In this document: piece after piece, positions 7,343 to 9,330 of the stretch
How the letters are laid out: each line of letters starts with the position of its first letter
Numbering within the stretch: the stretch's first letter is position 1
Virus genome (UHGV): UHGV-1351982
DNA length: 64,000 bases
Source of the DNA: a virus
Direction: 5' to 3' (one strand)
The notes under the pieces: model-generated
The model's database searches: none
What the model was told of the DNA's origin: nothing
Seen by the model: only the letters and a program-made list of their open reading frames with translations
Translations under genes and position numbers: made by a program

Positions 7343-8398
7343 TTAAAACTCTCCAACGTTAAAGTGATGAATCAGCCAGTCTACTGCGTTTACTGCTTCG
7401 TCCATACGAACCTTATAGTCCGGGGAGTCAATATATACAGTACGCCCTTCTGGGAACTGATTAGGAAATTCTTTCTTCATCTGCTCGAACAGTTCAGAAG
7501 TAATTGAACGATCGGAGTTAATACGTAAACCATCATCTACCCACTTAACAGTAGGTGCTAAAACTATAACTAAATCATAATGCTCTTCTTTAGCAATAGC
7601 TGTTACAACCGGATTTTTACGATGCTCGTAAAGTCTGTGATAAAACTCTGTAATGAAAGCATTTGTGTCTACAAACATGATCTTATTTGCAGTACGTTCT
7701 GCCTCAAACTCTAGCTCTTTGTGCCTGAATGCAATTTTATTATAGTCCTCGCTAGTCAGGAGTTCTTCATTACCAACTAGATCAACTTCGCAGTAAGTAC
7801 GACCATATTCTTCTACCCACGAAGTATTATATAATTTCGCAAGGTACTTTGTTAAAGTTGTTTTGCCGGAGCTTTCAGTACCAATGATAACAACCTTACG
7901 CACATAGTCTTTACGAACTACGCTAGGGAGAAATTCCCAATACTTCATAAGATCATTACGAATCATAGTAGCTGAGATTGGAACACGAGTCCGATCAGAG
8001 TCTACAATATAATGTCCAAACTTCGGCAGATATTTCTTATATTCTGCATCATAGTCTATTTCGCTAGAGAAAATGGTAATTTCAGGCAAATGGCCATAAT
8101 TATCATTCAGGATTCTAGCATATTCTGGCCAACCGTTTGGGTACTCTGGAATATCATCTTCAATAATGTACTCTACCGAAACATGCTCGATATCAGCATA
8201 AGTTTGCTCAAGCCAACGCAGTCGATTCTTTAACTGCAAGACTTCCTGATCACGTGTGTTTTGTTTATCCAGCCAGCGATTATCATGACTAACTACAACA
8301 ATAACTCGCTCACACATAGTTGCTGCTGTATTAATTAAGTTAATATGACCACGCGTTAATGGTGCGAACTTACCAATTACTAGACCAGTCTTAATCAT
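7343..8398 (-). CDS. NadR-like bifunctional NMN adenylyltransferase / ribosylnicotinamide kinase (no HTH domain)
   Basis: Start MIKTGLVIGKFAPLTRGH carries the nucleotidyltransferase H-x-G-H motif; later Walker A IIGTESSGKTTL; GAGAGAGG RBS; ORF-track N-terminal extension is the translated promoter. Confidence 0.6.
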   Translation of the reverse strand: MIKTGLVIGKFAPLTRGHINLINTAATMCERVIVVVSHDNRWLDKQNTRDQEVLQLKNRLRWLEQTYADIEHVSVEYIIEDDIPEYPNGWPEYARILNDNYGHLPEITIFSSEIDYDAEYKKYLPKFGHYIVDSDRTRVPISATMIRNDLMKYWEFLPSVVRKDYVRKVVIIGTESSGKTTLTKYLAKLYNTSWVEEYGRTYCEVDLVGNEELLTSEDYNKIAFRHKELEFEAERTANKIMFVDTNAFITEFYHRLYEHRKNPVVTAIAKEEHYDLVIVLAPTVKWVDDGLRINSDRSITSELFEQMKKEFPNQFPEGRTVYIDSPDYKVRMDEAVNAVDWLIHHFNVGEF

Positions 8399-8585
8399 AT
8401 TTGATTCCTCTCTCAAATTTATAAATATATTATACAGAGAATTTAGCATTCAAGCAATCGAATTTTTAAACTTTTTAGTGGAAAATCGCAGGGCACTTAA
8501 GGGTAGCAGGTGAGTGGTGAGGTCCAGAAATTGTTACCCCACTAAAAATCCGGGGGCAATTTTTAAAGACCCCTTGACATTTTCG
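7931..8585. repeat. 655-bp direct repeat, copy A (nadR-like 5' region, promoter and GC-rich upstream segment)
   Basis: Identical to 8651-9305 at a 720-bp offset by visual alignment. Confidence 0.8.
8429..8457 (-). promoter_or_regulatory. sigma70-like early promoter of the nadR-like/pnuC operon
   Basis: Minus strand: ttgctt, 17 nt, tataat, ataaatttgagagaggaatcaaatATG. Confidence 0.55.
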
Positions 8586-8595
8586 NNNNNNNNNN
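8586..8595. other. assembly gap (10 N)
   Basis: Run of n characters in the sequence. Confidence 0.95.
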
Positions 8596-8650
8596 TTGTT
8601 ACCCCACTAAAAATCCGGGGGCAATTTTTAAAGACCCCTTGACATTTTCG

Positions 8651-9118
8651 AAATTCCCAATACTTCATAAGATCATTACGAATCATAGTAGCTGAGATTG
8701 GAACACGAGTCCGATCAGAGTCTACAATATAATGTCCAAACTTCGGCAGATATTTCTTATATTCTGCATCATAGTCTATTTCGCTAGAGAAAATGGTAAT
8801 TTCAGGCAAATGGCCATAATTATCATTCAGGATTCTAGCATATTCTGGCCAACCGTTTGGGTACTCTGGAATATCATCTTCAATAATGTACTCTACCGAA
8901 ACATGCTCGATATCAGCATAAGTTTGCTCAAGCCAACGCAGTCGATTCTTTAACTGCAAGACTTCCTGATCACGTGTGTTTTGTTTATCCAGCCAGCGAT
9001 TATCATGACTAACTACAACAATAACTCGCTCACACATAGTTGCTGCTGTATTAATTAAGTTAATATGACCACGCGTTAATGGTGCGAACTTACCAATTAC
9101 TAGACCAGTCTTAATCAT
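8651..9118 (-). pseudogene. truncated duplicate of the nadR-like 5' end (reads out of the repeat into the gap)
   Basis: ORF 8534-9169 has the same first 170-odd residues as the nadR-like ORF, then diverges across the repeat boundary and the N run. Confidence 0.5.
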
Positions 9119-9148
9119 ATTTGATTCCTCTCTCAAATTTATAAATAT

Positions 9149-9177
9149 ATTATACAGAGAATTTAGCATTCAAGCAA
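9149..9177 (-). promoter_or_regulatory. duplicate copy of the nadR-like promoter
   Basis: Identical to 8429-8457 within repeat copy B. Confidence 0.45.
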
Positions 9178-9291
9178 TCGAATTTTTAAACTTTTTAGTG
9201 GAAAATCGCAGGGCACTTAAGGGTAGCAGGTGAGTGGTGAGGTCCAGAAATTGTTACCCCACTAAAAATCCGGGGGCAATTTTTAAAGACC

Positions 9292-9330
9292 CCTTGACAT
9301 TTTCGCTGGGGTAGTGTAAAGTATATGTTA
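9292..9330 (+). promoter_or_regulatory. candidate plus-strand sigma70 promoter for the 9384-11019 island
   Basis: ttgaca, 17 nt, taaagt at the end of the 55-bp repeat unit, about 50 nt before the AGGAGG RBS. Confidence 0.35.

What the first reader, a model, noticed from the sequence alone, without database searches (positions are those of the whole stretch)
7931..9305. Perfect 655-bp direct repeat flanking a 10-N gap
Positions 7931-8585 recur identically at 8651-9305, separated by ten Ns plus a second copy of the last 55 bp. This duplicates the promoter, RBS and first 156 or so codons of the nadR-like gene. The pattern is typical of a scaffold mis-join, but a genuine tandem duplication would give a second strong promoter and a truncated gene copy.
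Basis: seen in the sequence. Interest (0 to 1): 0.5.

Follow-up and report, generated by a model that had tools for sequence, protein, structure and literature searches.

The report
Assembler-made duplicate in T5-like phage scaffold
The perfect 655-bp repeat around the ten Ns is real in the file, but it is almost certainly an assembly-scaffolding artefact in an ordinary T5-like Salmonella/E. coli phage genome, not a biological gene duplication.

Summary
Window 7931-8585 equals 8651-9305 (655 bp, 100%). Between the copies lie the window's only N run (8586-8595) and a third copy of the last 55 bp (8596-8650).

The window is a T5-like phage (Demerecviridae, Epseptimavirus), collinear over 64 kb with Salmonella phage PRF-SP13. 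The repeat holds a T5 early-type promoter, the RBS and exactly 156 codons (the whole NMN-adenylyltransferase domain) of a nadR-like gene. It also holds the -35 box of a divergent promoter.

Evidence against a real duplication:
- The listed best-matching phage records all span one copy.
- The copy-to-copy junction is absent from the phage records and from three contig collections.
- The chimeric ORF it would create is absent from about 15 billion proteins.
- Logan contigs of run SRR5677825 are 100% identical to the window over 6 kb. They run straight through both repeat edges and break only at a genuine 39-nt promoter repeat.

The layout "55-mer, N x10, same 55-mer" fits a (meta)SPAdes k=55 scaffold join. 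The right-hand contig does carry a novel end-to-start junction, so a few chimeric or rare-variant reads probably made a loop in the assembly graph.

Verdict: artefact, low interest. A clonal tandem duplication remains about 10% likely.

The parts
7931..8585 (.). Repeat unit R, copy 1. It is contiguous with the rest of nadR and is the copy that matches the single-copy layout of relatives.
   Evidence: Window 5797-8585 aligns to PRF-SP13 92210-89422.
8586..8595 (.). Run of 10 N, the only gap in the window. Read as an artificial scaffold gap.
8596..8650 (.). Extra copy of the last 55 bp of R (K). It is the first k-mer of the right-hand contig and matches the 55-bp overlap between neighbouring (meta)SPAdes graph segments.
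   Evidence: The 55-bp overlap in metaSPAdes default graphs is described in PMC12133742 and PMC8851603.
8636..8665 (.). Novel junction between the end of R and the start of R (8650|8651, ...GACATTTTCG|AAATTCCC...), with only 1 nt of microhomology.
   Evidence: Absent from the phage records and from viral, genome and metagenome contig collections.
8651..9305 (.). Repeat unit R, copy 2. It is contiguous with the right flank.
   Evidence: Window 8650-12393 aligns to PRF-SP13 90077-86335, re-using reference bases 89422-90077.
7343..8398 (-). Full-length nadR-like gene (351 aa), with an NMN adenylyltransferase domain and a ribosylnicotinamide-kinase-type P-loop domain.
   Evidence: Pfam CTP_transf_like at residues 7-147 and AAA_28 at 168-314. 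Named nicotinamide-nucleotide adenylyltransferase/NadR in relatives.
8651..9118 (-). Duplicated first 156 codons of nadR (the whole NMNAT domain). As written it reads into K and the Ns.
8399..8457 (-). nadR promoter and leader of the T5 early (PN25-like) type: TTGCTT, 17 nt, TATAAT, then ATAAATTTGAGAGAGG. It is duplicated at 9119-9177.
   Evidence: It belongs to a family of at least 10 members in the window.
9294..9322 (+). Sigma-70-like promoter (TTGACA-17-TAAAGT) of the divergent 330-aa gene. The right edge of R (9305|9306) falls between its -35 and -10, so the copies of TTGACA at 8574 and 8639 have no -10.
6664..7341 (-). pnuC-like nicotinamide riboside/NMN transporter, downstream of nadR in the same operon.
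   Evidence: Pfam NMN_transporter, E = 4e-43.
9384..10376 (+). Divergently transcribed conserved hypothetical gene (330 aa).
   Evidence: No Pfam hit.

Best explanation
The sequenced phage carries one copy of the 655-bp segment. The second copy, the ten Ns and the extra 55-mer were written by a de Bruijn graph assembler and scaffolder, most likely SPAdes or metaSPAdes with a final k of 55.

A small number of reads joined the end of the segment to its start. These could be library or PCR chimeras, a self-ligated fragment, or a rare tandem-duplication variant. They made a small loop in the assembly graph.

One path stopped at the end of the segment (U1-R, ending in the 55-mer K). A second path began with the loop edge (K-junction-R-U2). 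The scaffolder then joined the two with its minimal gap and printed the second path in full, including its first k bases. That gives U1-R-N10-K-R-U2.

Shown here: the layout; the single-copy state in relatives and in an independent assembly; and the uniqueness of the junction. Inferred: which assembler was used, and where the junction reads came from.
For: 1. The layout is exact: R (655 bp), N x10, K (the last 55 bp of R), R. This is the only N run and the only long perfect repeat in 64 kb.
2. A 55-bp overlap is what neighbouring metaSPAdes or SPAdes graph segments share with default settings (PMC12133742; PMC8851603).
3. The window is collinear with Salmonella phage PRF-SP13 over its whole length. 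The single structural discrepancy is that reference bases 89422-90077 (656 bp) are used twice.
4. All 30 listed records that cover the 3,801-bp query in full span only about 3,072-3,121 bp (402 records match in all). All 15 listed hits of the junction probe split into two pieces spanning 656 bp.
5. The exact junction 31-mer is absent from IMG/VR viral contigs, GTDB genome contigs and JGI metagenome contigs.
6. The 192-aa and 209-aa ORFs that a gap-free tandem duplication would encode are not among about 15 billion proteins. The intact NadR control is found.
7. Two Logan (k=31) contigs of run SRR5677825 are 100% identical to the window over 1,862 bp and 4,200 bp. Every other relative differs by 1-8%. 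PnuC with this exact sequence is on record only from that run, and NadR only from that run and Klebsiella phage 150049.
8. Those two contigs cross 7930|7931 and 8585|9306 without interruption. They end exactly 30 nt into a true 39-nt promoter repeat (6559-6597 / 8400-8438), as a k=31 graph must. So that graph breaks at real repeats but has no retained branch at either edge of R.
9. Logan discards k-mers seen once and removes weak connections with SPAdes-like heuristics (PMC12424806). The junction was therefore absent or rare in those reads.
10. The junction has only 1 nt of microhomology, and no mosaic boundary lies at the R edges.
Against: - No reads are available, so depth over R and the number of junction reads are unknown.
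- The right-hand contig really does contain the end-of-R to start-of-R junction. A k=55 graph cannot invent this junction without reads that span it.
- The assignment of the window to run SRR5677825 rests on 100% identity over 6 kb and on exact-protein uniqueness, not on a record. Sibling runs (SRR5677828, 830, 832) carry the same phage, and the window could come from one of them or from a co-assembly.
- The behaviour ascribed to SPAdes (a 10-N minimal artificial gap, and the next edge printed with its first k bases) is from my memory of the software. I did not verify it here.
- Logan contigs never show a 31-mer twice by construction. Their single copy alone proves nothing. Only the absence of contig breaks at the R edges is informative.
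Confidence: 0.82

Rival explanations
1. A genuine clonal tandem duplication of 655 bp exists in this phage (U1-R-R-U2), and the assembler simply failed to close it. It would add a second PN25-like early promoter driving a stand-alone NMNAT-domain protein (156 aa plus a 36-aa tail) upstream of the intact nadR-pnuC operon.
For: The junction K|R is spelled out in the right-hand contig, so some reads supported it. The break falls exactly at a codon boundary, in the linker between the NMNAT domain (7-147) and the kinase domain (168-314). The extra copy would therefore encode a complete domain. A short-read assembler cannot span a 655-bp repeat.
Against: The Logan k=31 contigs that are 100% identical to the window cross both R edges without a break. 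A junction at genome-level depth would force a break there. The listed best-matching phage records all span one copy, and the junction probe never aligned in one piece among the listed hits. The junction was not found in three contig collections. The chimeric ORF is not on record. There is only 1 nt of microhomology. The other edge cuts a promoter between -35 and -10.
Confidence: 0.1
2. This is a plain mis-join of two independently assembled contigs whose ends overlap by 655 bp, for example by reference-guided scaffolding that does not merge overlaps. No junction reads would be needed.
For: N-filled gaps flanked by duplicated sequence are the usual product of such scaffolding. Both flanks are in the correct order and orientation relative to PRF-SP13.
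Against: The right-hand contig does not start at the beginning of R. It starts 55 bp earlier, with the end of R (8596-8650) fused to the start of R. A contig that merely overlapped would show ...CGCTAGGGAG before R, as the genome does. So the novel junction lies inside a contig, not across the gap.
Confidence: 0.07
3. The repeat reflects phage end biology: a direct terminal repeat, or a site-specific nick of T5-type DNA, captured in a circularly permuted assembly.
For: T5-like phages have terminal repeats and site-specific nicks. In phage Stitch the homologous segment lies at 39,256-39,911 of 123,475 bp (about 32%), close to the classical T5 32.6% nick (that position is from memory).
Against: The locus is internal in phage Stitch, far from the terminal repeats, which are roughly 10 kb long at the genome ends (size from general knowledge of T5). 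The published T5 major-nick consensus R/GCGCRGG (PMC3517423) does not occur at either edge. The nearest match is at 11085-11092, 1.8 kb away, and matches are not enriched in the window (3 against 1.76 expected). A terminal repeat assembled as a circle gives one copy, not an end-to-start junction.
Confidence: 0.01

Closest known systems
Scaffold gap with duplicated k-mer overlap in SPAdes/metaSPAdes output (an unresolved short loop or repeat)
   Same: The gap is exactly 10 N, the same 55-mer sits on both sides, the copies are perfectly identical, and the repeat is longer than typical short-read inserts. A 55-bp overlap is the default final k of metaSPAdes graphs.
   Different: The assembler used for this window is not known. 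The gap-writing behaviour is recalled from the software, not tested here. The loop edge implies some real junction-spanning reads.
nadR-pnuC module of Epseptimavirus phages (Salmonella phages PRF-SP13, Sw2 and Stitch; Klebsiella phage 150049)
   Same: The gene order is the same: tRNAs, a signal-peptide ORF, pnuC, nadR, then the divergent 330-aa gene. DNA identity is 95-99%, and the NadR protein is identical to that of phage 150049.
   Different: Those genomes have a single copy of the 655-bp segment and no gap.
Spontaneous tandem duplications in dsDNA phage stocks
   Same: These are head-to-tail repeats of a few hundred bp to kb with identical copies. A rare variant of this kind could be the source of the junction reads.
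   Different: Here there is no evidence that such a molecule is more than a trace component. The independent assembly shows no branch at the edges.

Membership tests
Assembler/scaffolder artefact (k-mer overlap gap) | Fixed-length N run flanked on both sides by the same k-length sequence | tested here: met
   The N x10 at 8586-8595 is flanked by the identical 55-mers 8531-8585 and 8596-8650. 55 bp is the metaSPAdes default overlap.
Assembler/scaffolder artefact (k-mer overlap gap) | Duplicated segment is single-copy in an independent assembly of the same material | tested here: met
   Logan contigs SRR5677825_9677 and SRR5677825_347 are 100% identical to the window. They cross both R edges and break only at the 39-nt promoter repeat. 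Caveat: identity of the read set is inferred, not documented.
Assembler/scaffolder artefact (k-mer overlap gap) | Duplicated segment is single-copy in close relatives | tested here: met
   The 3,801-bp query spans about 3,072-3,121 bp in all 30 listed full-coverage records. PRF-SP13 bases 89422-90077 are aligned twice.
Assembler/scaffolder artefact (k-mer overlap gap) | Read depth over the segment equals the flanks, and junction reads are rare or chimeric | not testable with these tools
Genuine tandem duplication | Sequence-resolved head-to-tail junction | tested here: inconclusive
   The junction 8650|8651 is written in the sequence. However, copy 1 is linked to it only through an N gap and a redundant 55-mer.
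Genuine tandem duplication | Junction reproducible in independent data | tested here: not met
   The junction probe split in two in all listed phage-record hits. The junction 31-mer is absent from three contig collections. There is no branch in the Logan contigs of SRR5677825. The chimeric ORF is not on record.
Genuine tandem duplication | Two-fold read depth over the unit | not testable with these tools
   No reads are available.
NadR-type bifunctional NMN adenylyltransferase / ribosylnicotinamide kinase (phage form without the HTH domain) | N-terminal nucleotidyltransferase domain plus C-terminal P-loop kinase domain | tested here: met
   Pfam CTP_transf_like at 7-147 (31 bits against a cut-off of 21) and AAA_28 at 168-314 (110.9 bits against 27). 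Enzymatic activity was not tested.
Phage direct terminal repeat | Located at the physical genome ends | tested here: not met
   The homologous segment lies at about 39 kb of the 123 kb Stitch record and is internal in the related phage records examined.

The most novel reading that the evidence does not exclude
The phage population in this sample really contains a tandem duplication of the nadR 5' region, clonal or as a sizeable sub-population. It would place a second strong T5 early promoter and a free-standing NMN-adenylyltransferase domain upstream of nadR-pnuC. That would be an example of promoter and domain amplification of an auxiliary NAD-salvage gene caught in a natural community.
Probability: 0.1. 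Interest if true: 0.2.

Novelty: not a real feature. Interest (0 to 1): 0.04.

Why it matters
The practical value is quality control. The 720 extra positions (copy 2, the redundant 55-mer and the Ns) should be collapsed before annotation. Otherwise a spurious truncated nadR gene with X residues and a spurious extra promoter will be called.

If the duplication were real, it would be a modest example of a recent, unstable tandem duplication of an auxiliary metabolic gene module in a T5-like phage. It would not be a new kind of system.

Tried and rejected
- **T5 nick site or terminal repeat as the cause.** The published nick consensus R/GCGCRGG has no match at either edge. The nearest is at 11085-11092, and matches are not enriched. 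The locus is internal in relatives.
- **Mosaic or recombination boundary at the repeat edges, as from a strain mixture.** A mismatch profile against PRF-SP13 and Sw2 shows no change of identity at 7931 or 8585.
- **Homology search with a 60-aa peptide spanning the junction.** No candidates were returned. This is uninformative, because the identical 24 NadR residues in the query also recovered nothing.
- **Exact look-up of the collapsed 192-aa chimeric ORF in the look-up of encoding contigs.** I replaced it with the listing of cluster members, which did not find it.
- **Look-up of the 404-aa ORF at 54009-55223.** It is not on record.
- **Literature search for the run accession prefix SRR56778.** No papers were found.
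- **Literature search for a statement that SPAdes writes 10-N gaps.** The hits only described other uses of 10 N, so that point rests on my own knowledge.

Full report
**Observation**

Window 7931-8585 is identical to 8651-9305 (655 bp). The match extends one base to the left (a G at 7930 and 8650) and not at all to the right. Between the copies lie the only N run of the window (8586-8595, ten N) and a third copy of the last 55 bp of the unit (8596-8650 = 8531-8585 = 9251-9305).

The layout is therefore U1 - R - N10 - K - R - U2, where K is the last 55 bp of R. No other long perfect repeat occurs in the 64 kb.

**What the region is**

The window is a T5-like phage (Demerecviridae, Markadamsvirinae, Epseptimavirus). 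A 3.8-kb query across the locus hits 402 phage records. The best are Salmonella phages PRF-SP13, PRF-SP12, STP-SP9 and CRW-SP5/6 at 99.1%. The whole window is collinear with PRF-SP13, apart from the small cassette differences usual in this group. It carries 18 tRNA genes.

On the minus strand the locus encodes two genes:
- a PnuC-type transporter (6664-7341; Pfam NMN_transporter, E = 4e-43);
- a 351-aa NadR-like protein (7343-8398), with a cytidylyltransferase-like (NMNAT) domain at residues 7-147 and an AAA_28 kinase-type domain at 168-314.

Upstream of nadR lies TTGCTT, 17 nt, TATAAT, then a leader ATATTTATAAATTTGAGAGAGGAATCAAAT before the ATG. This element belongs to a family of at least ten similar elements in the window. 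One of them, at 35696-35756, is nearly identical to what I recall as the classical T5 PN25 early promoter (from memory).

The left edge of R falls exactly after codon 156, in the linker between the two domains. The right edge falls between the -35 (TTGACA) and -10 (TAAAGT) of the promoter of the divergent 330-aa gene.

**Is the duplication found anywhere else?**

No.
- In each of the 30 listed records that cover the query in full, the 3,801-bp query spans only about 3,072-3,121 bp, which is one copy.
- Against PRF-SP13 the sole structural anomaly in 64 kb is that reference bases 89422-90077 (656 bp) are aligned twice.
- A 165-bp probe across the K|R junction matched 356 records. All 15 listed hits align as two pieces spanning 656 bp, never as one piece.
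- The exact 31-mer across the junction is absent from IMG/VR viral contigs, the GTDB species-representative genomes and JGI metagenome contigs.
- The ORF that a gap-free tandem duplication would encode (192 aa, or 209 aa from the upstream ATG) is not among about 15 billion proteins. The intact NadR control is present in an 82-member cluster.

**An independent assembly of apparently the same reads**

PnuC with exactly the window's sequence is on record only in a Logan contig of run SRR5677825. NadR is on record there and in Klebsiella phage 150049, whose DNA is about 96% identical to the window.
- Contig SRR5677825_9677 (1,862 bp) equals window 6568-8429 with no mismatch.
- Contig SRR5677825_347 (4,200 bp) equals window 9129-13328 with no mismatch. 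Equivalently, it equals 8409-8585 followed by 9306-13328.
- Nine other loci fetched for the same gene differ by 1-8%.

Sibling runs SRR5677828, 830 and 832 hold further 100%-identical pieces elsewhere in the window. The window therefore most likely derives from this metagenome series.

The two Logan contigs end exactly 30 nt into a true 39-nt repeat shared by two promoters (6559-6597 and 8400-8438). That is where a k=31 de Bruijn graph must break. By contrast, they pass through 7930|7931 and through 8585|9306 without interruption.

Logan drops k-mers seen once and then applies SPAdes-like graph cleaning (PMC12424806). A junction present at genome-level depth would have left a branch at both edges of R and ended the contigs there. 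It did not, so the junction was absent or rare in those reads. Logan contigs never repeat a 31-mer by construction, so only the missing breaks are informative, not the single copy as such.

**How the pattern arose (inferred)**

A 55-bp overlap is what adjacent segments of a default metaSPAdes/SPAdes graph share (PMC12133742; PMC8851603). From my knowledge of SPAdes, which I did not verify here, the scaffolder inserts a minimal artificial gap of 10 N when it joins two paths without finding an overlap. It then prints the next path in full, including its first k bases. That gives "K N10 K" when the two paths actually meet at the same graph vertex.

The right-hand path begins K|AAATTCCC..., that is, end of R fused to start of R. 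A k=55 graph can only hold that edge if reads span it. This is therefore not a simple join of two contigs with overlapping ends.

The most economical account has four steps:
1. A few junction reads (chimeras, a self-ligated fragment, or a rare duplication variant) created a short loop.
2. One path stopped at the end of R.
3. The other path started with the loop edge.
4. The scaffolder stitched the two together.

The junction has 1 nt of microhomology, and no mosaic boundary lies at the edges. This fits a random chimera at least as well as a recombination product.

**Alternatives**

- *Clonal tandem duplication.* It is not excluded without reads, but the Logan contigs and the lack of any second sighting argue against it. 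I give it about 10%.
- *Terminal repeat or nick.* The locus is internal in phage Stitch (about 39 kb of 123 kb). The published T5 nick consensus R/GCGCRGG (PMC3517423) does not occur at the edges, and its nearest match is 1.8 kb away.

**Verdict**

The duplication is an assembly artefact in an ordinary Epseptimavirus nadR-pnuC region. The 65 bases 8586-8650 are certainly not biological, and copy 2 very probably is not either. Interest is low. Read mapping of SRR5677825 and its sibling runs would settle the question in minutes.

Noticed in passing
window 377-19997 (minus strand) and 28884-47864 (plus strand): A family of at least 10-15 promoter-plus-leader elements (TTGCTT-17-TATAAT followed by ATAAATTTGAGAGAGG). 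The copy at 35696-35756 looks nearly identical to the classical T5 PN25 promoter (from memory). A 39-nt exact stretch shared by the copies at 6559 and 8400 is what breaks the k=31 Logan contigs.
   Followed up: partly
window 11085-11092 (-), 24867-24874 (+), 50896-50903 (-): These match the published T5 major-nick consensus RGCGCRGG. They are not enriched over shuffles (3 against 1.76). The first lies 1.8 kb right of the repeat, near where the classical T5 32.6% nick would map.
   Followed up: partly
window 19350-19928 (-): A 192-aa ORF with a Pfam Proteasome (PF00227) hit lies in a segment that has no match in PRF-SP13. The exact protein is present in five Logan runs of the SRR56777xx/78xx series.
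   Followed up: no
window 22557-23234 (-): A 225-aa HNH_3 homing-endonuclease-like ORF is inserted between the ribonucleotide reductase subunit genes, and most of it has no match in PRF-SP13. It has the look of a mobile endonuclease cassette.
   Followed up: no
window 75-12393 (-): A cluster of 18 tRNA genes, all on the minus strand, interspersed with small ORFs. This is typical of T5-like phages.
   Followed up: no
L007, L017-L022 (Logan runs SRR5677825, 828, 830, 832, 778): The same phage appears in several runs of one SRA series, with 100% identity over 4-7 kb pieces (99.9% in SRR5677778). Contig numbers reach the tens of thousands. This suggests the window comes from a metagenome time series or co-assembly.
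   Followed up: partly
window 8538-8560 (inside the 55-mer K): A short GC hairpin (CCCC...GGGGG) followed by CAATTTTT lies in the intergenic region between the divergent promoters. PRF-SP13 differs here by 3-4 substitutions. Its function is unknown.
   Followed up: no
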